Positions 1,234 to 25,923 of a stretch of DNA of 44,632 nucleotides are shown piece by piece (position 1 is the first letter of the stretch; every line of letters starts with the position of its first letter). The DNA lies in IMG/VR virus record IMGVR_UViG_3300045988_026856, positions 1 to 44,632 of that record. One strand, 5' to 3'. A program made the translations under genes and the position numbers. Below the pieces are notes generated by a model, which was given only the letters and a program-made list of their open reading frames with translations, made no database searches and was not told the origin of the DNA. This DNA is from a virus. Taxonomy: Duplodnaviria; Heunggongvirae; Uroviricota; Caudoviricetes.

Positions 1234-1262
1234 TTGCGCACCCCAACATAATAGGTTACTAT
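1234..1262 (+). promoter_or_regulatory. early promoter TTGCGC-N17-TACTAT with AATAG-N4-CTATT inverted repeat over the -10
   Basis: Near-identical copy at 21655..21683 (minus) and related copy at 2714..2742. Confidence 0.45.
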
Positions 1263-2742: not shown

Positions 2743-2772
2743 TCATTTACACAAACGAGAGGAGAGACAGAG

Positions 2773-2940
2773 ATGAAAGCAGTAACTAAAGATGAGTTTT
2801 TCAGCACAGTAGAAGGTCTTATGTATAACATGGTTATTAATGCGGGTACGCCAGAGTCTATCTACATAGATAGCGGTAATAATCTTGTCGCTAAAGCAAC
2901 ATGGAGTTACCCGGAAACCGTGTATGAGGTTGCGCAATGA
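2773..2940 (+). CDS. hypothetical small protein (55 aa)
   Basis: GAGAGGAGAG RBS; stop overlaps next start (ATGA). Confidence 0.4.
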   Translation: MKAVTKDEFFSTVEGLMYNMVINAGTPESIYIDSGNNLVAKATWSYPETVYEVAQ

Positions 2941-3164
2941 CCCCCGCAAAAGCACGTGCGCTGTTACGCCGCAATGGGATTCTTGATGAGGTGGACATCC
3001 TTGTAGAGAAATACGGCATACACATGATAGGTCGCCAGCCGAAAGGCGATATGCGTTGGATGGCGGGGGTCCCCGGTACGCCAGGCGTGTCATACGGCGA
3101 CACATTAACCCATGCGGTCCATACTTACATTATTGAGTCGGTACTAGGAGAAACCAATGAGTAA
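2937..3164 (+). CDS. hypothetical protein (75 aa)
   Basis: ORF track; translational coupling. Confidence 0.5.
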   Translation: MTPAKARALLRRNGILDEVDILVEKYGIHMIGRQPKGDMRWMAGVPGTPGVSYGDTLTHAVHTYIIESVLGETNE

Positions 3165-3609
3165 CAAAAACGAAGTATTCGAGTACCTGATTGGCCAGTT
3201 ACGGCAGCAGGTAAATTGCAACCAGTGTGAAGACCTGGCGCACGAGGTGCAGTCACTTAAGAATCAGTTACGTGATATGTCGGAGCTGGTGGATGAGCTA
3301 CTGGGGACAATAACGTTAATGAACGGGAAATCTAGTCGCCGTAAGGAAGATACTCAGTACAACGCCTGGAGGCCGCATTATGGTGCACGACAACCTGTGC
3401 CGGATGGGACTATGGTATTTATCCGGTATCGCAACGGGGAGGAGCCGAAACACAGTGTAGCAGCAGAAAAGCGGTCGTGGATTTGGGATGGAACATACGC
3501 AGACATAGTGGAATACAAGATTGACACACAGGAATGTGAACATGACTATCGTTTGGTTCTGTGGTGTAGCGACTTACAGCAGTGCTCTAAATGCGGGGTG
3601 ATCAAATGA
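3157..3609 (+). CDS. hypothetical protein (150 aa)
   Basis: ORF track; AGGAG RBS. Confidence 0.55.
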   Translation: MSNKNEVFEYLIGQLRQQVNCNQCEDLAHEVQSLKNQLRDMSELVDELLGTITLMNGKSSRRKEDTQYNAWRPHYGARQPVPDGTMVFIRYRNGEEPKHSVAAEKRSWIWDGTYADIVEYKIDTQECEHDYRLVLWCSDLQQCSKCGVIK

Positions 3610-3809
3610 CCAGCATATTATTTATCTGGGTACTGTCCGCGGGCCAGATGCAACTAGCGGCAGCAGAAACGTTTTATTCGATGGAGGCGTGCCAGTCCGC
3701 GGCACGCGCCGCAGAGAACGCGCACTTCCTGTTTCAGGGCGACAAGCCAAACGATTCAGAGGTACGCGCTATCTGCTCACCTAAGCGACTTGGTAAACAG
3801 GAGAAGTGA
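3606..3809 (+). CDS. hypothetical protein with N-terminal hydrophobic segment (67 aa)
   Basis: ORF track, start refined to ATG at 3606; 3' end lies in the 46-bp repeat. Confidence 0.5.
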   Translation: MTSILFIWVLSAGQMQLAAAETFYSMEACQSAARAAENAHFLFQGDKPNDSEVRAICSPKRLGKQEK

Positions 3810-4966: not shown

Positions 4967-5275
4967 TTGGATAAATTTACTGAAACAGTGACAGGCTGGC
5001 TTCTCGCTGCCGCGCTAGCCGGAGGGGTCATCGGACTACGACAACATAAGTCCGTTATTTCTGGACCCATCGACGGCTTATTCTTTATTGTAACCGGCTT
5101 CGCTTGCGCCGTATTCGGTGCGCCTCTCGCTGCCCAATGGTTCGGCATTACCGGGGAGCGTGAAATCGCTGGTCTGGGTTTCATCATCGCTATTCTCTGG
5201 ATGCCTATCTATTCCCGCCTCTCCGGTATCGTCGCCGGGGAATACATCTCACGTCGAGGAGGCCCGGATGAATGA
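4967..5275 (+). CDS. holin (3 predicted TM segments, charged C-terminus)
   Basis: TTG start after GGAGGA RBS; three hydrophobic helices; directly upstream of endolysin. Confidence 0.6.
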   Translation: MDKFTETVTGWLLAAALAGGVIGLRQHKSVISGPIDGLFFIVTGFACAVFGAPLAAQWFGITGEREIAGLGFIIAILWMPIYSRLSGIVAGEYISRRGGPDE

Positions 5276-19996: not shown

Positions 19997-20024
19997 AACT
20001 AAGGCCCCTTTCGGGGCCTTTTTC
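19997..20024. terminator. bidirectional terminator (AAGGCCCC-TTTC-GGGGCCTT, A-rich before, T-rich after)
   Basis: Perfect 8-bp stem between convergent genes. Confidence 0.65.
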
Positions 20025-20255
20025 TTACTCATCAATATTACTTCGGTACTCCCGTAACTTCTCCAGACTTTCAATTGCTTCCGCTAAGTCTGTTCCGGTG
20101 TCCTTGTGCCCGCGAAGGCCCATACACAATAGCTTCTTCAATGCGTGTTGTAACGCCGGGTCGCGGATATCGAAGGCACGTAGCACATCATAAACGTCTA
20201 CTGTCATAGTGCTGCCGTGGGTGTTTGTCATTGTGCGGTTGTATTTTGAAGTCAT
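20025..20255 (-). CDS. small hypothetical protein (76 aa), possibly DUF3310-like
   Basis: VDVYDVLRAF...HALKKLLCMGLRGHKD...DLAEAI pattern (tentative, from memory); ATGA-coupled to upstream gene. Confidence 0.5.
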   Translation of the reverse strand: MTSKYNRTMTNTHGSTMTVDVYDVLRAFDIRDPALQHALKKLLCMGLRGHKDTGTDLAEAIESLEKLREYRSNIDE

Positions 20256-21382
20256 CCCAGCATCTCCGGTGAAATAGTTAAACGTGCGACCTCGCCATAT
20301 TCGGCGCTATAAGTAATTACGTTTGCACTACGGCCTGACATCCATCCGCCGCGAGAGGCGTAGGCGTCTTTAGCCGCCAGGGTGCGGTGCTGCTCAACAA
20401 TCATGTTACGGCTTTCCACAATCTTCTGGTGGTGCAGGTGGCCTACGTGGGCGTAGCTGTAAACACTCTCGCCGAACGCTTTGCGGAACTTGGCAATCAT
20501 AACCGGCTCGATAGCGTCGAATCGTGCTTTATGCCCGTGGTGAAAGAACAACGTCGTTTTTCCGTGTTGCACCATCTTGTAAACATCCGGCGACGTATCG
20601 ACAATCACTCGGCTGTCGTTTGAGTATAAAACCGTGAACATTTCAGCCAGCCATACGGAGCCGACGGGGTCGTGGTTACCTTGAACGATTAAAAGTTTGA
20701 CTGTGTGATGCTTAACGAGAGCCATATCAACGACACGGCGCACCATACGAATCATGTAGCGAACTAGTTTCTGATAGCGAGTATCGGCGTCTAACACATG
20801 ACGCGACTCGGGGGTAACGGCATCAAGACTATCGAAGTGCGCGAAGTCTCCAAGCAGGTTAATAACTCCTGTTCCTGCATCTGGTGCTTTCTGAAACGCC
20901 GCGTCGAACCATCGAGAGAACAGGTCCTCTGCAATCTTCATGTCCCAGTCGTCTCCGCTCTCGTCGGCCCATGCAAGCATACCGAGATGGAAATCAGACA
21001 CAGTGTAAAGATTGAGTAATTTATCGTCGCGTTTGGTGCGAACAGCTTTAACAGGTGCAACGGGGGTAATCTCTGACTTCATGCCTTCAATTACAGCTTT
21101 CATCAACTCGACCTGACGTTCAGCATCGGTGTCAGTCTTAACCCATTGCAACTTAGTGTTGCCGAACTCGTCCACAAGTGACGATGTGCCTTTAATCTTG
21201 TAGCCATCCGGCACAAGGTGGCTAACGTCGCGCCCGTGTCCTATGCCTTTCTTTGCCAGCTTCGCTTTACGGATGCGAATAACGCGGTCTGAGATGCCGT
21301 ATTTACGGGCGATGTCTACATTCTTCATCCCGGCGTTCAATTCTTCCCGTAACTGTTCGTCGGTTATTTTCTTATGAGCCAT
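20252..21382 (-). CDS. N-terminal HTH fused to SbcD/Mre11-like metallophosphoesterase
   Basis: HTH (NVDIARKYGISDRVIRIRKAK); phosphoesterase motifs SDFHLG, GDFAHFD, GNHD, HHGH, GHLHH in canonical order; GAGGAAG RBS. Confidence 0.75.
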   Translation of the reverse strand: MAHKKITDEQLREELNAGMKNVDIARKYGISDRVIRIRKAKLAKKGIGHGRDVSHLVPDGYKIKGTSSLVDEFGNTKLQWVKTDTDAERQVELMKAVIEGMKSEITPVAPVKAVRTKRDDKLLNLYTVSDFHLGMLAWADESGDDWDMKIAEDLFSRWFDAAFQKAPDAGTGVINLLGDFAHFDSLDAVTPESRHVLDADTRYQKLVRYMIRMVRRVVDMALVKHHTVKLLIVQGNHDPVGSVWLAEMFTVLYSNDSRVIVDTSPDVYKMVQHGKTTLFFHHGHKARFDAIEPVMIAKFRKAFGESVYSYAHVGHLHHQKIVESRNMIVEQHRTLAAKDAYASRGGWMSGRSANVITYSAEYGEVARLTISPEMLG

Positions 21383-21421
21383 GCTTTACTTCCTCGTGTT
21401 TAGGATTTGTCCTATACTAGC

Positions 21422-21613
21422 TCACTTCTCTTTGACATTCGAGTTGCACGCCCAGATTAAAATAAATACCCACGGCAGCAGAACCCAACCGAGAAACAGA
21501 TTAGCCATGAATATCGCTAATTTAGCTTTATGGTTGCGCATATGCGCCACGAGAAATGGGATAAAATAAACTAAAACGATAATGATTAAGAAGAACATAG
21601 TAATACCTGTCAT
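21422..21613 (-). CDS. small 2-TM membrane protein resembling superinfection-immunity (Imm-like) family
   Basis: FIPFLVAHMRNHKAKLAIFMANLFLGWVLLPWVFILIWA pattern; AGGAG RBS. Confidence 0.55.
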   Translation of the reverse strand: MTGITMFFLIIIVLVYFIPFLVAHMRNHKAKLAIFMANLFLGWVLLPWVFILIWACNSNVKEK

Positions 21614-21654
21614 GGGGTAGCTCCTGTTTGAGTTAACATTGTTGGTGTAAGTGA

Positions 21655-21683
21655 ATAGTATCCTATTATGTTGGGGTGTGCAA
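21655..21683 (-). promoter_or_regulatory. promoter TTGCAC-N17-TACTAT driving the minus-strand insert; near-identical to 1234..1262
   Basis: About 35-bp element shared with the early promoter at 1234..1262. Confidence 0.45.
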
Positions 21684-21790
21684 GTAATGTGTTAGAATTA
21701 TTTTGCGCCTAGTGTCGCACACGAAAAGCGGGTGGTTCCCGTCTGGCGCATTAACCTTAACCAGTAACCTCTTAACCAAAGGATTAAAGA

Positions 21791-22207
21791 ATGAAACTTT
21801 CTGATTTTTATTACGAAGCTGAGGCAGAAAAAGGCGCCCGTATGCCAATACCACTGAAAGACGGCACCGATTCAGGGGAGTGGCTGAACGTTGTTTCACC
21901 GGAGGCAGACGTTGCTGTTAAAGCTATGAGGGCGTTTACACTTGCGTACCGCGCGGCATTAGGTAAATTGAAACCGCTTCGTGATAAATGCGAGGAACTG
22001 AAAGATTTCTCGGAATACAATATTAAGATGGAAGACGCCGCGACGGACCTTAACCGCCAGTTAGCACTTGAACTGGTTAACGGTTGGAGTCTCGACGATG
22101 AATTTAATAAAGAGAACCTGAACACTCTTTTCTCACAATATAAACGCCTCGCTGAACACGTTGTTGTTTTCCACAACGAACAGCTTCACCAATTGCAGGA
22201 AAAGTAG
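21791..22207 (+). CDS. tail assembly chaperone
   Basis: 138 aa directly upstream of the tape measure gene. Confidence 0.55.
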   Translation: MKLSDFYYEAEAEKGARMPIPLKDGTDSGEWLNVVSPEADVAVKAMRAFTLAYRAALGKLKPLRDKCEELKDFSEYNIKMEDAATDLNRQLALELVNGWSLDDEFNKENLNTLFSQYKRLAEHVVVFHNEQLHQLQEK

Positions 22208-24904: not shown

Positions 24905-24940
24905 TAACAAAAAAAATAAGGCCCGAAAGGGCCTTATTTA
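24905..24940. terminator. bidirectional terminator (A8-TAAGGCCC-GAAA-GGGCCTTA-TTT)
   Basis: Stem-loop flanked by A-run and T-run between convergent genes. Confidence 0.65.
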
Positions 24941-25893
24941 TGCGGAACTTTAGGCTTCACTCCGTCCCTACAAAGGGCCAAAATCTCTGGAATTATCTTA
25001 GGGTCTGAGGTTAGCATCCACTCCGTGGATCCGTCGAAGCTGCCATAGCCCCACTCATTCGACGCTATTTTGTAAGTGTTATGGAAATACACTTCTAGCA
25101 TTCGTATTTTTGCGCCGTTATCGTCGCGATGAATGCCAAGCACTTCGAAACCAAAGGGGGTAGCGTTACGCAGGTGACGTATCCGCTGTTTAGGCCTGTT
25201 TGATAACCCTATCTTCACGAATCGGCCGCATTCACTAAGTAACGCATAGAGGAACCCAGTTTTATTAGGGTCGTACCCGCTAGAGGCACATCCAGGACAT
25301 CCTTGATTCTGATGAATGATATCTGCTATTCGCTGGCTAAACTCACCATGGATATCGCAAAGCCGCACCGCTTTGCTATACTGATTCTTATACCCTCCTT
25401 CGAAGCGCAAGAACTTCCACTTATCACTCACGGCGTAAATCTGCGAGATGCGTTCCTCCTCTGAGTATGAAGGTCTTCCCGCGCAACTAGGACACCCATG
25501 TTCCTTACTAATTGCGTTAGCTATCAAAGTGTCGAACTCCCCGTGTTCGGGACAGAGCCTACGTACCTTAGAATAGGCGTTTCGATAGCCGTTAGGAAAT
25601 CCTACAAAACTGTATTGCGGGGCTACCTTAGCTAGTTCCTCTACTACATTGCTCTCAGGTTTTCGCTGTTTGCTTGATGAAGATTCTTTTCCACACCTAG
25701 GGCACCCAATACCTTTTTTAATACTAGCGGCCGTTGCCGAGAAAGCCCCATGTTCGCGGCAAAATAGGGTTATCTTACTAAACGCACCTGTATACCCCGC
25801 ACCATCGTCCAACAACTCGTATTTACCGCCGTGGTTGGCTAAATCAGCTAATATCCTCTCGCGGCGCTCAGGCCATAGTATTTTCCGGCACAT
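24934..25893 (-). CDS. three zinc-ribbon repeats fused to a C-terminal GIY-YIG-like (T5orf172-type) domain
   Basis: Three repeats of YSK..LC..HGEF...(7-9)...GCP.C; C-terminal GFLYAL...VKIGLSNRPKQRIRHL...GSTEWM; start refined to ATG at 25893 with GAGGT RBS. Confidence 0.7.
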   Translation of the reverse strand: MCRKILWPERRERILADLANHGGKYELLDDGAGYTGAFSKITLFCREHGAFSATAASIKKGIGCPRCGKESSSSKQRKPESNVVEELAKVAPQYSFVGFPNGYRNAYSKVRRLCPEHGEFDTLIANAISKEHGCPSCAGRPSYSEEERISQIYAVSDKWKFLRFEGGYKNQYSKAVRLCDIHGEFSQRIADIIHQNQGCPGCASSGYDPNKTGFLYALLSECGRFVKIGLSNRPKQRIRHLRNATPFGFEVLGIHRDDNGAKIRMLEVYFHNTYKIASNEWGYGSFDGSTEWMLTSDPKIIPEILALCRDGVKPKVPHK

Positions 25894-25923
25894 AATCAAC
25901 CTCAATAAAGAGTATTAACTAGT

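What the first reader, a model, noticed from the sequence alone, without database searches (positions are those of the whole stretch)
19997..21688. Minus-strand three-gene insert in the tail module: Imm-like membrane protein + HTH-SbcD/Mre11-like phosphoesterase + small protein
Three genes (21613..21422, 21382..20252, 20255..20025) run antiparallel to the surrounding structural genes. They have their own promoter (21655..21683, a near copy of the early promoter at 1234..1262) and end at a bidirectional terminator, so the unit looks like an independently expressed accessory cassette. The phosphoesterase carries the five metallophosphoesterase motifs in SbcD/Mre11-like form but has an N-terminal HTH and no SbcC/Rad50 partner. 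Paired with a small 2-TM protein resembling superinfection-immunity proteins, this could be a superinfection-exclusion or other host/competitor-directed nuclease system; I do not recognise this gene combination as a described system.
Basis: partly seen in the sequence, partly recalled or inferred. Interest (0 to 1): 0.75.

Follow-up and report, generated by a model that had tools for sequence, protein, structure and literature searches.

The report
Conserved Kagunavirus Imm–phosphoesterase operon
The backwards-facing three-gene block in the tail region of this Kagunavirus-type E. coli phage is real and has its own promoter, but it is a conserved, already annotated feature of the phage subfamily: a widespread, untested DNA-binding metallophosphoesterase flanked by a membrane 'immunity' gene and a small gene that are interchangeable passengers, not parts of one new machine.

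Summary
All the described features are present: three minus-strand genes, a promoter that copies the one at 1234, a hairpin terminator, intact metallophosphoesterase (MPE) motifs behind an N-terminal HTH, a Pfam-significant Imm-family 2-TM protein, and no Rad50/SbcC.

The window is a near-complete Kagunavirus genome (Guernseyvirinae). The block lies at the same place, between tail tube and tail chaperone genes, in about 450 GenBank phages. It is annotated there as 'superinfection immunity protein / DNA repair exonuclease / hypothetical'.

The HTH-MPE is the only constant gene. Full-length homologues occur in 2,042 phage records and 4,560 50%-identity clusters. Elsewhere it sits in DNA and nucleotide-metabolism regions, without Imm or the 76-aa gene.

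Among 17 close relatives only 5 carry the full trio. The upstream slot holds Imm or a signal-peptide protein. The downstream slot holds the 76-aa gene, a phosphatase plus dNMP kinase, HNH or an antirepressor.

My best reading is an early/middle operon with a core DNA-directed Mre11/PolD-DP1-like phosphodiesterase and two accessory slots. The enzyme is probably a nuclease for host-DNA breakdown or end processing, analogous to T5 A1. Its function is inferred, not shown. The 'new three-gene system' reading is not supported.

The parts
21655..21683 (-). Sigma-70-like promoter of the operon: TTGCAC (21683-21678), 17-nt spacer, TACTAT (21660-21655). It overlaps the palindrome AATAGTATCCTATT (21654-21667).
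   Evidence: The 33-nt element has 2 copies in the window against 0 expected. A third promoter of the class lies at about 2714-2745. The element is conserved upstream of the operon in 12 of 12 Kagunavirus-type loci, whichever first gene follows. No transcription start site has been mapped.
21633..21661 (+). Divergent promoter-like site TTAACA-17-TAGTAT facing the tail chaperone genes. It shares the palindrome with the minus-strand promoter.
   Evidence: Consensus scan only. The region gave no more such sites than shuffled sequence.
21422..21613 (-). Imm-family small inner-membrane protein (63 aa, two hydrophobic helices). It occupies the swappable upstream slot.
   Evidence: Pfam PF14373 at E=7.7e-14, above the gathering score. 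phrog_1039 'immunity to superinfection' at 2.5e-23. Two hydrophobic segments in near-identical homologues. Replaced by a 108-aa signal-peptide protein in L009, L014, L016 and L020.
20252..21382 (-). HTH-metallophosphoesterase (376 aa), the constant core gene. The HTH is about 21251-21361, a beta-hairpin/helix linker follows, and the MPE catalytic domain is about 20255-21028.
   Evidence: phrog_704 at E=1.9e-161. Invariant catalytic residues. AF2 pLDDT 93.5. Foldseek top hits are Mre11 and PolD DP1 exonuclease at E about 3e-8. 2,042 phage records and 4,560 50%-identity clusters.
20025..20255 (-). 76-aa protein of a widespread phage domain family of unknown function (beta-hairpin plus three helices). 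It occupies the swappable downstream slot and overlaps the MPE stop codon in ATGA.
   Evidence: phrog_2452 at 2.4e-36. 782 phage records and at least 5,453 90%-identity clusters, none with a Pfam domain. AF2 pLDDT 86.6 with no PDB fold match. Replaced by HAD_PNKP plus dNMP kinase, HNH or ANT/Rha genes in relatives.
20001..20020 (.). GC-rich hairpin AAGGCCCC-TTTC-GGGGCCTT between the convergent tail-tube gene (ends 19996) and the operon. It is terminator-like on both strands.
   Evidence: plus the sequence.

Best explanation
This is a conserved, separately transcribed operon of Guernseyvirinae phages, lying antiparallel between the tail-tube and tail-chaperone genes. It is driven by one member of a genome-wide class of sigma-70-type promoters that carry the palindrome AATAG-N4-CTATT. 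The same class drives the small early genes and the replication genes.

The only constant gene is the HTH-metallophosphoesterase. I infer that it binds DNA through its N-terminal HTH and hydrolyses phosphodiester bonds with a two-metal Mre11/PolD-DP1-like active site, without a Rad50/SbcC partner. Its most likely role is DNA breakdown or end processing that feeds phage DNA metabolism. That would mean host-chromosome degradation and dNMP salvage, as proposed for the unrelated-in-sequence MPE-like T5 A1.

The first position is a slot for an envelope protein. Here it is an Imm-family 2-TM protein, expected to block DNA entry of superinfecting phage as T4 Imm does. The last position is a slot for variable small accessory genes, here a 76-aa domain of unknown function. 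The three genes are co-expressed, but they are not an obligate functional system.

What is shown: the anatomy, conservation, slot swapping, intact catalytic motifs, fold and genomic contexts. What is inferred: DNA as the substrate, the nuclease role, the Imm mechanism and the expression timing. The confidence of 0.6 combines about 0.85 for the architecture (a core gene plus two swappable slots, not a system) with about 0.5 for the DNA-nuclease function.
For: Synteny and ubiquity:
- The region matches 446 phage records, with the same gene order in Bas74, SHAK7693 and Jerseyvirus 4FS1.
- The MPE has full-length homologues in 2,042 phage records and 4,560 50%-identity clusters.

Core gene versus passengers:
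- Only 5 of 17 loci with MPE at least 79% identical carry the trio.
- The upstream gene is Imm or a 108-aa signal-peptide protein.
- The downstream gene is the 76-aa protein, HAD_PNKP plus dNMP kinase, HNH or ANT/Rha, and always starts at the same ATGA junction.
- All 63 loci with MPE at most 75% identical lack Imm. Only two of them (L041, L053) have a weak 76-aa-family match, about 1 kb upstream.
- The 75%-identical Dhillonvirus copy sits between lysis and terminase genes.

Active enzyme: nine catalytic-motif residues are invariant and the model is confident.

Nuclease-type fold: the best PDB matches are T. maritima and M. jannaschii Mre11 and the PolD DP1 proofreading exonuclease.

DNA context:
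- The protein carries an N-terminal HTH.
- In Drexlerviridae the gene follows helicase, VRR-NUC and Dam and precedes PNK/dNMP kinase and holin.
- In Vibrio phage it follows SSB and an endonuclease.
- Over 80 IMG/VR loci the recurrent neighbours are dNMP kinase (13 loci), HAD_PNKP phosphatase (13), RusA, NinB and dGTP diphosphohydrolase.

T5 analogy:
- T5 A1 is reported as necessary and sufficient for host DNA degradation and is predicted to be a metallophosphatase resembling DSB-repair and proofreading nucleases (bioRxiv 10.64898/2026.04.02.716235).
- A1 homologues with N-terminal HTH domains exist.
- The T5 gene order A2 (DNA-binding), 2-TM protein, A1, then dmp (5'-dNMPase) parallels this operon.

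Regulation: the promoter class is shared with early and replication genes and is conserved in 12 of 12 Kagunavirus loci.

Imm: Pfam-significant, with weak tblastn links to Imm of T4-like phages.
Against: - No member of this MPE family has been tested biochemically or genetically, as far as the searched literature shows.
- Foldseek E-values for the cyclic-nucleotide phosphodiesterase Rv0805, YfcE, GpdQ and LpxH are within one to two orders of magnitude of the Mre11/DP1 hits. All TM-scores are only 0.3-0.45 at 12-15% identity, so the fold alone does not show a nuclease.
- Sequence-profile similarity to T5 A1 is weak. It is confined to motif III and a few downstream columns (P=8.6e-4, probability 23%).
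- The phage already encodes a PD-(D/E)XK exonuclease and an ssDNA-annealing protein, so no gap in its recombination pathway demands this enzyme.
- The one Kagunavirus RNA-seq study classes imm as 'late' together with the DNA polymerase, though with a coarse multi-cycle design.
- No transcription start or termination has been mapped.
- Imm function has never been tested in these phages.
Confidence: 0.6

Rival explanations
1. One reading: the three proteins act together as one superinfection-exclusion or competitor-directed system. The Imm-like membrane protein senses or blocks incoming DNA and the HTH-nuclease destroys it, with the small protein acting as regulator or inhibitor.
For: - The genes are co-transcribed from one promoter to one terminator, and the MPE and 76-aa genes overlap in ATGA.
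- In the Guernseyvirinae clade the gene directly upstream of the MPE is always an envelope-targeted protein, either Imm or a signal-peptide protein.
- T5 also has a 2-TM gene directly upstream of A1.
Against: - Only 5 of 17 close relatives have the trio, and 4 have neither partner.
- The partners are replaced by unrelated genes at the same junctions.
- Drexlerviridae, Dhillonvirus, Vibrio and 60 environmental loci carry the MPE without Imm.
- The 76-aa domain occurs in 782 phage records, mostly away from any MPE or fused to other N-terminal domains.
- T5.005 is not an Imm-family protein.
- There are no PADLOC hits.
Confidence: 0.08
2. The MPE is not a DNase. It is a nucleotide or nucleic-acid-end phosphoesterase, such as a 2',3'-cyclic or 3'-phosphodiesterase working with the PNKP-type phosphatase and kinase seen next to it in relatives (end healing after defence nucleases). 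Alternatively it is a cyclic-nucleotide phosphodiesterase that destroys immune signals.
For: - Rv0805 (a cNMP phosphodiesterase), YfcE and GpdQ score almost as well as Mre11.
- HAD_PNKP phosphatase (PF25109, E=1e-19) plus a P-loop kinase lie directly downstream in 13 of 80 loci, spanning 51-97% MPE identity, and also in Webervirus.
- From general knowledge, Clostridium thermocellum Pnkp uses an MPE domain for end healing.
Against: - The conserved N-terminal HTH argues for duplex-DNA binding.
- The adjacent kinase matches dNMP kinase families (phrog_139, PF21448), not polynucleotide kinase.
- No RNA or DNA ligase is seen in the window.
- The known phage anti-signal enzymes that I recall (Acb1, Apyc1) have other folds.
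Confidence: 0.2
3. The protein is a lambda NinI-like Ser/Thr protein phosphatase, as some GenBank records annotate it.
For: - In distant relatives it lies in a nin-like region (NinB, RusA, then lysis genes), where lambda carries NinI.
- One record annotates it as 'serine/threonine protein phosphatase'.
Against: - The motifs are DFHLG, GDFAHFD and GNHD, not the PPP signatures GDxHG, GDxVDRG and GNHE (sequence).
- No PPP-family phosphatase appears among the top 50 PDB matches.
- An HTH fusion is unexplained by this reading.
Confidence: 0.04
4. The HTH-MPE is mainly a transcription factor that binds the AATAG-N4-CTATT palindromes and switches the early/middle promoters, including its own. The MPE domain would be accessory or a sensor.
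For: - The N-terminal HTH is of the GerE/sigma-70 region-4 type, with a weak hit to phrog_836 'late transcriptional activator'.
- Six exact palindromes overlap promoters, against 0.05 expected.
- T5 A1 is annotated as required for shut-off of pre-early genes.
Against: - Dhillonvirus Opt212 has a 75%-identical HTH-MPE but no such palindrome, even allowing one mismatch.
- The catalytic residues are invariant across thousands of homologues.
- Other HTH regulators are annotated in these genomes.
Confidence: 0.07

Closest known systems
Orthologous loci already annotated in Guernseyvirinae phages (for example Bas74_0021-0023, SHAK7693_0024-0026, fBC-Eco01 Gp27c/Gp28c, Jerseyvirus imm)
   Same: Same three genes, same order, same position between the tail tube and tail chaperone genes, at 85-98% protein identity. 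[quoted passage not shown]
   Different: Nothing material. Those annotations are computational, mutually inconsistent ('DNA repair exonuclease', 'DNA polymerase II small subunit', 'Ser/Thr phosphatase', 'wHTH protein') and untested.
Mre11/SbcD nucleases and the PolD DP1 proofreading exonuclease (MPE-fold nucleases)
   Same: Two-metal MPE fold with all five motifs in the nuclease-like form (DxH, GDxxH, GNHD, H, GHxH). These are the best PDB structural matches.
   Different: Identity is 12-15% and TM-scores about 0.4. There is no Rad50/SbcC or DP2 partner and no DP1-type OB fold. The protein has an N-terminal HTH instead. Pfam Metallophos scores fall below the gathering cut-offs.
Bacteriophage T5 A1 (phrog_1745), the pre-early host-DNA-degradation factor
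   Same: A stand-alone phage MPE-like protein whose reported structural neighbours are the same two nuclease groups. Family members carry an N-terminal HTH. The operon also holds a 2-TM protein and a nucleotide phosphatase. It shares an 'xSNHD..xRWL'-like extension of motif III.
   Different: There is no significant sequence homology beyond motif III (probability 23%). A1 is 555 aa and lies in a different PHROG. T5's A2 is a separate protein. T5.005 is not Imm-family. A1's own nuclease activity is still unproven.
T4 Imm / Pfam PF14373 superinfection immunity proteins
   Same: The 63-aa protein matches the full Pfam model above threshold and has two hydrophobic helices. There are weak tblastn hits to Imm of T4-like phages.
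   Different: It sits in a small siphovirus as the first gene of an operon with an MPE. Exclusion has never been tested for this clade. It is interchangeable with a non-homologous secreted protein.
Lambda nin region / NinI phosphatase
   Same: In distant relatives the MPE lies among NinB, RusA and dNMP-metabolism genes, just upstream of the lysis genes.
   Different: The motif set is different (not PPP type), the protein has an HTH fusion, and it is larger. No homology was detected.

Membership tests
Pfam PF14373 Imm_superinfect (63-aa protein) | HMM score above the curated gathering threshold over the whole model | tested here: met
   51.8 bits against a 27.9 cut-off, E=7.7e-14, model positions 1-42 of 42. 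phrog_1039 at 2.5e-23.
Pfam PF14373 Imm_superinfect (63-aa protein) | Small protein with two transmembrane helices | tested here: met
   Two Kyte-Doolittle hydrophobic segments in near-identical homologues (L013, L018). The sequence shows residues about 5-23 and 32-54 separated by HMRNHKAK.
Pfam PF14373 Imm_superinfect (63-aa protein) | Blocks DNA entry of superinfecting phage | not testable with these tools
   Needs expression and challenge assays. The literature calls the role in Jerseyvirus unknown.
Calcineurin-like metallophosphoesterase superfamily (376-aa protein) | Five metal-binding and catalytic motifs (DxH, GD, GNH[D/E], H, GHxH) | tested here: met
   D130, H132, G178, D179, N236, H237, H282, G314 and H317 are invariant in 87 homologues.
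Calcineurin-like metallophosphoesterase superfamily (376-aa protein) | Pfam Metallophos or Metallophos_2 score above the gathering threshold | tested here: not met
   22.1 bits against 27 and 17.2 against 21.5. The family is too divergent for the Pfam models, so membership rests on motifs and fold.
Calcineurin-like metallophosphoesterase superfamily (376-aa protein) | MPE beta-sandwich fold | tested here: met
   AF2 pLDDT 93.5. 129 PDB matches with E<=1e-3; every match shown is an MPE-fold protein.
Mre11/SbcD nuclease family | Works with a Rad50/SbcC SMC-like ATPase encoded by the same genome | tested here: not met
   None among the large ORFs scanned or in the annotation of a 93%-identical relative.
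Mre11/SbcD nuclease family | Closer in sequence or structure to Mre11/SbcD than to other MPE families | tested here: inconclusive
   Mre11 is the top Foldseek hit (E=2.9e-8), but DP1, Rv0805 and YfcE are within about tenfold. Profile-to-PDB sequence hits to Mre11/SbcD are at E=0.14-0.4 only.
Mre11/SbcD nuclease family | Mn2+-dependent exo- or endonuclease activity on DNA | not testable with these tools
   Needs a biochemical assay.
PHROG 704 ('DNA repair exonuclease') | Full-length match to the family profile | tested here: met
   E=1.9e-161, residues 4-375 on profile positions 2-389 of 390. The family name is an untested annotation.
T5 A1 family (phrog_1745) | Detectable sequence homology to A1 | tested here: not met
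   No phrog_1745 hit. hhalign probability is 20-23%, with only motif III aligned in the Viterbi path.
PPP Ser/Thr phosphatases (lambda NinI type) | Signature motifs GDxHG, GDxVDRG and GNHE | tested here: not met
   The sequence has SDFHLG, GDFAHFD and GNHD. No PPP-family phosphatase appears among the top 50 fold matches.
DUF3310 (PF11753; considered for the 76-aa protein) | HMM or profile similarity | tested here: not met
   0 of 39 family members hit PF11753. hhalign against a true DUF3310 protein gives probability 0.15%.
Known anti-phage defence systems (PADLOC) | Any of the three proteins matches a defence-system model | tested here: not met
   No hits at E<=1.

The most novel reading that the evidence does not exclude
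The HTH-MPE family (phrog_704; at least 4,500 50%-identity clusters; present in T1-like, Dhillonvirus, Guernseyvirinae, Vibrio, Rhodobacter and Campylobacter phages) is a Rad50-independent, HTH-guided Mre11-like DNase. On this reading it is the small-siphovirus counterpart of T5 A1. It would dismantle the host chromosome, and perhaps superinfecting DNA, and feed dNMPs to the neighbouring dNMP kinase. It would then be the so far unidentified host-DNA-degradation factor of these very common phages, and a predicted trigger of m6dAMP-sensing defences such as Metis/PUA-Cal-HAD.
Probability: 0.25. Interest if true: 0.6.

Novelty: new member of a known kind. Interest (0 to 1): 0.3.

Why it matters
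As a 'new three-gene system' the finding does not hold, so its direct importance is low. What remains useful is narrower.

1. One of the most widespread uncharacterised enzymes of small virulent siphoviruses, including therapeutic Salmonella and E. coli phages, is an intact HTH-fused Mre11/DP1-like metallophosphoesterase. Its GenBank annotations conflict. If it proves to be the host-DNA-degrading nuclease, that would explain nucleotide salvage in T1-like and Kagunavirus phages. It would also predict their sensitivity to defences that sense host-DNA breakdown.

2. The operon is a clear example of exact-junction gene swapping around a fixed core gene. This is handy for phage engineering, because the two slots look tolerant to cargo.

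3. The shared palindromic promoter/operator defines a Kagunavirus regulon that includes the antiparallel islands inside the structural module.

Tried and rejected
- **DUF3310/SaV-like identity of the 76-aa protein.** This was a lead from memory of the motif. None of 39 family members hit PF11753, and hhalign against a verified DUF3310 neighbour gave probability 0.15%.
- **Solved-structure relatives of the 76-aa protein.** The profile search found only spurious TPR matches. Foldseek found nothing at E<=1e-3.
- **True homology between the HTH-MPE and T5 A1.** hhalign with a 33-sequence A1 alignment aligned only motif III with confidence. I kept this as an analogy only.
- **T5.005 (2-TM) as an Imm homologue.** There was no Pfam Imm hit, and BLASTP gave E=0.058.
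- **A membrane protein as a universal upstream partner of the MPE.** It holds only in the Guernseyvirinae clade. The crude hydropathy screen flagged 27 of 80 loci, and in loci with MPE at most 60% identical the upstream genes are mostly RusA, RuvC-like, dNMP kinase, DUF3310 and similar.
- **The HTH-MPE as binder of the AATAG-N4-CTATT palindrome.** Dhillonvirus has a 75%-identical protein but no palindrome.
- **Defence-system models (PADLOC) and NCBIfam.** No informative hits.
- **Sequence search of the PDB with the single protein and with the profile.** Only sub-threshold GerE, Mre11 and 'Nuclease MPE' hits.
- **Literature searches for any experimental work on this MPE family** in T1-like, Jerseyvirus or Kagunavirus phages. 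Nothing found.
- **Compositional evidence for recent acquisition.** The MPE gene has the same GC content as its flanks.
Full report
**What is in the sequence**

The three minus-strand ORFs exist exactly as described: 21613..21422 (63 aa), 21382..20252 (376 aa) and 20255..20025 (76 aa). Each has a Shine-Dalgarno-like site. The stop codon of the 376-aa gene overlaps the start of the 76-aa gene in ATGA (sequence).

Upstream, the minus strand of 21651-21683 is a 33-nt near-copy of 1234-1266. There are two matches against none in 100 shuffles. It reads TTGCAC, 17 nt, TACTAT.

Downstream, an 8-bp stem GC-rich hairpin at 20001-20020 separates the operon from the convergent tail-tube gene. It scores as terminator-like on both strands.

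**Where the window comes from**

The window is a near-complete Kagunavirus genome (Guernseyvirinae). It is 90-93% identical over 20 kb to E. coli phages such as SHAK7693 and KMB36.

The 1.9-kb region matches 446 phage records, mostly Salmonella Jerseyvirus and E. coli Kagunavirus. In annotated relatives the same genes lie in the same place, between the tail-tube gene (annotated 'minor tail protein' or 'tail tube protein') and the tail assembly chaperones. They are labelled 'superinfection immunity protein', 'DNA repair exonuclease / metallophosphoesterase / DNA polymerase II small subunit / Ser-Thr phosphatase' and 'hypothetical protein'.

Genome papers mention them in passing. GC content of the phosphoesterase gene equals that of its flanks. 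So this is a conserved feature of the subfamily, not an insert.

**The 63-aa protein**

It matches Pfam PF14373 (Imm_superinfect) over the whole model, above the curated threshold (51.8 against 27.9 bits, E=7.7e-14). It also matches phrog_1039 'immunity to superinfection'. It has two hydrophobic helices.

tblastn finds it in 401 phage records, 350 of them at 60% identity or more. Weak links reach the Imm genes of T4-like phages. Family membership is met, but the function in these phages is untested.

**The 376-aa protein**

It belongs to phrog_704 (E=1.9e-161). Pfam Metallophos models score below threshold. However, nine catalytic-motif residues are invariant in an alignment of 87 homologues that are only 33-49% identical to it.

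An AlphaFold2 model built on that alignment is confident (pLDDT 93.5). It shows a three-helix HTH (residues 8-44), a beta-hairpin/helix linker and an MPE core (119-376).

Foldseek against the PDB ranks T. maritima Mre11 and the PolD DP1 proofreading exonuclease first (E about 3e-8). Rv0805, YfcE, purple acid phosphatase, LpxH and GpdQ follow closely. All have TM-scores of 0.3-0.45 at 12-15% identity. Sequence-level PDB hits are only sub-threshold: GerE for the HTH, and Mre11/SbcD and 'Nuclease MPE' for the core.

The scan of ten large ORFs found no Rad50/SbcC-like protein. It found SNF2 helicase, C5 methylase, PolA, a PD-(D/E)XK exonuclease, an Enc34-type SSB and a primase-helicase.

**How widespread the enzyme is, and in what company**

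Full-length homologues, HTH included, occur in 2,042 phage records. These include Drexlerviridae (T1-like, Webervirus), Dhillonvirus, and Vibrio, Rhodobacter and Campylobacter phages. They fall into 4,560 50%-identity clusters. BFVD holds dozens of structural relatives, none with a tested function.

- In T1-like phages the gene closes the replication module: helicase, VRR-NUC, Dam, small ORFs, MPE, then PNK/dNMP kinase or directly holin.
- In a Vibrio phage it follows SSB and an endonuclease.
- In Dhillonvirus a 75%-identical copy lies between the lysis and terminase genes.
- Clustering the neighbours in 80 IMG/VR loci gave recurrent same-strand neighbours over 48-97% MPE identity. These were HAD_PNKP phosphatase (13 loci), dNMP kinase (13 loci), the 76-aa domain (15 loci), NinB, a TraR/DksA zinc finger and holin; upstream genes in individual loci also included RusA, DUF3310 and dGTP diphosphohydrolase.

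This is a nin-like region of DNA and nucleotide metabolism.

**Are the three genes a system?**

No. I ran tblastn with Imm and the 76-aa protein against the 80 loci. Among the 17 loci whose MPE is at least 79% identical:

| Content | Loci |
|---|---|
| Imm present | 11 |
| 76-aa gene present | 7 |
| Both (full trio) | 5 |
| Neither | 4 |

All 63 more distant loci lack Imm. Only two of them (L041, L053) have a weak 76-aa-family match, about 1 kb upstream.

Reading the loci shows two swappable slots around a fixed MPE. The upstream slot holds Imm or a non-homologous 108-aa signal-peptide protein (phrog_14165). The downstream slot holds one of the following:

- the 76-aa gene;
- HAD_PNKP phosphatase plus dNMP kinase;
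- an HNH endonuclease;
- an ANT/Rha antirepressor-like gene.

In the loci read, the downstream gene usually begins at the same ATGA overlap with the MPE stop.

The 76-aa domain is itself very widespread: 782 phage records and at least 5,453 90%-identity clusters. It usually lies far from any MPE, or forms the C-terminal domain of 170-270-aa proteins. It has no Pfam family. Its confident small fold, a beta-hairpin plus three helices (pLDDT 86.6), matches no solved structure.

**Regulation**

The promoter element contains the palindrome AATAG-N4-CTATT. The window has six exact copies against 0.05 expected.

- Three copies lie in TTGCRC-17-TACTAT promoters. Two of these drive strings of small plus-strand genes at about 1290-2400 and 2770-3800, and the third drives this operon.
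- At least two of the others lie in the spacer of near-consensus TTGACA-17-TATAGT promoters of minus-strand replication genes (39848, 42181).

A published PHIRE analysis of fBC-Eco01 found the same motif seven times and called it a 'phage promoter'. In SHAK7693 other antiparallel islands inside the structural module, such as RusA, also carry it. The element precedes the operon in 12 of 12 Kagunavirus-type loci, whichever first gene follows.

The operon therefore belongs to the early/replication promoter class, not the structural class. The only RNA-seq study groups imm with the DNA polymerase as 'late', but its design is coarse.

I tested whether the HTH of the MPE could be the operator binder. 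The Dhillonvirus genome, with a 75%-identical protein, has no such palindrome, so there is no support.

**Likely mechanism**

The invariant two-metal site shows that the protein is a working phosphoesterase. Three things point to DNA as the substrate and to a nuclease or end-processing role:

- the fused HTH;
- the DNA and nucleotide-metabolism neighbourhoods, especially dNMP kinase;
- the nearest structural neighbours, Mre11 and DP1.

The best functional analogue is T5 A1. It is reported as necessary and sufficient for host DNA degradation. It is predicted to be a metallophosphatase resembling the same two nuclease groups.

A1 homologues exist with N-terminal HTH domains. The T5 operon order is A2 (DNA-binding), a 2-TM protein, A1, then dmp, which mirrors this one.

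Sequence homology to A1 is not demonstrable, however, and T5.005 is not Imm-family. This is 'works like', not 'is a member of'.

The rival readings are a cyclic-nucleotide or end-healing phosphodiesterase, a protein phosphatase, and a transcription factor. They are listed with their tests. The first of these remains a real possibility, because the fold search does not separate nuclease from phosphodiesterase MPEs.

**Verdict**

The interpretation as a novel three-component exclusion or nuclease system is not supported. The locus is an already annotated, conserved operon with one widespread core enzyme of unknown but probably DNA-directed function and two cargo slots.

Novelty is low: it is a new member of known families. 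The residual interest lies in the uncharacterised HTH-MPE family.

Noticed in passing
window 1250, 2730, 21654, 35896, 39850, 42183 (14-nt cores): The palindrome AATAG-N4-CTATT occurs six times exactly, against 0.05 expected. It overlaps two classes of sigma-70-like promoters, TTGCRC-17-TACTAT and TTGACA-17-TATAGT. It looks like the operator of a Kagunavirus-wide early/replication regulon. The binding protein is unknown. The motif was called a 'phage promoter' in the fBC-Eco01 paper, although no phage RNA polymerase is evident.
   Followed up: partly
window 21633-21683: Two promoter-like sites on opposite strands share the same palindrome. Their -10 hexamers overlap (TAGTAT on the + strand, TACTAT on the - strand). 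One operator could therefore control the operon and the tail chaperone/tape-measure genes together.
   Followed up: no
window 24934..25905 (-): This is another antiparallel island inside the tail module. It is a 323-aa ORF with a CapR-homology/zinc-ribbon region and a weak MUG113 (T5orf172) match, so it looks like a homing endonuclease. SHAK7693 has an HNH endonuclease at the equivalent place.
   Followed up: partly
window 20252-20255; L009, L011, L013, L014, L016, L019, L020 at about 5128-5131: Whatever gene follows the MPE (the 76-aa gene or the HAD_PNKP phosphatase) starts at the same ATGA overlap with the MPE stop codon. This suggests gene exchange at an exact junction.
   Followed up: partly
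L009 5128-6167; L003 5160-6226; L033, L035, L036: A HAD_PNKP-type phosphatase plus a dNMP kinase lies next to the MPE in phages whose MPEs are only 51-97% identical. T5 likewise has the 5'-dNMPase dmp near A1. Recent preprints show that bacterial defences sense m6dAMP from host-DNA breakdown and that a HAD phosphatase removes it. A phage HAD next to a DNase could therefore blunt that signal. This is speculative.
   Followed up: no
window 21666..21899 (-); Bas74_0024, SHAK7693_0027: A short ORF upstream of the operon promoter is annotated as a 'hypothetical protein' (30-37 aa) in relatives. It lies upstream of the promoter, its 3' end overlaps it, and it is conserved as DNA. It is probably regulatory sequence rather than a gene.
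   Followed up: no
L090 (Jerseyvirus 4FS1) and rows H53-H58: Salmonella Jerseyviruses carry two very different MPE alleles, about 85% and about 54% identical to this one, at the same locus with the same flanking genes. This points to allelic replacement of the core gene as well.
   Followed up: partly
H65 (phage JK06); fragments (KpV79, Salmonella phage 36): In some phage records the MPE gene is annotated in two or more pieces or as short fragments. These could be sequencing errors, or a sign that the gene is dispensable in the laboratory.
   Followed up: no
L008 record header (OR594180.1): The closest GenBank relative, SHAK7693, is filed under Autographiviridae/Kayfunavirus and named vB_EcoM. 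Its genome is plainly a Kagunavirus-type siphovirus, so the taxonomy line in the record appears to be wrong.
   Followed up: no
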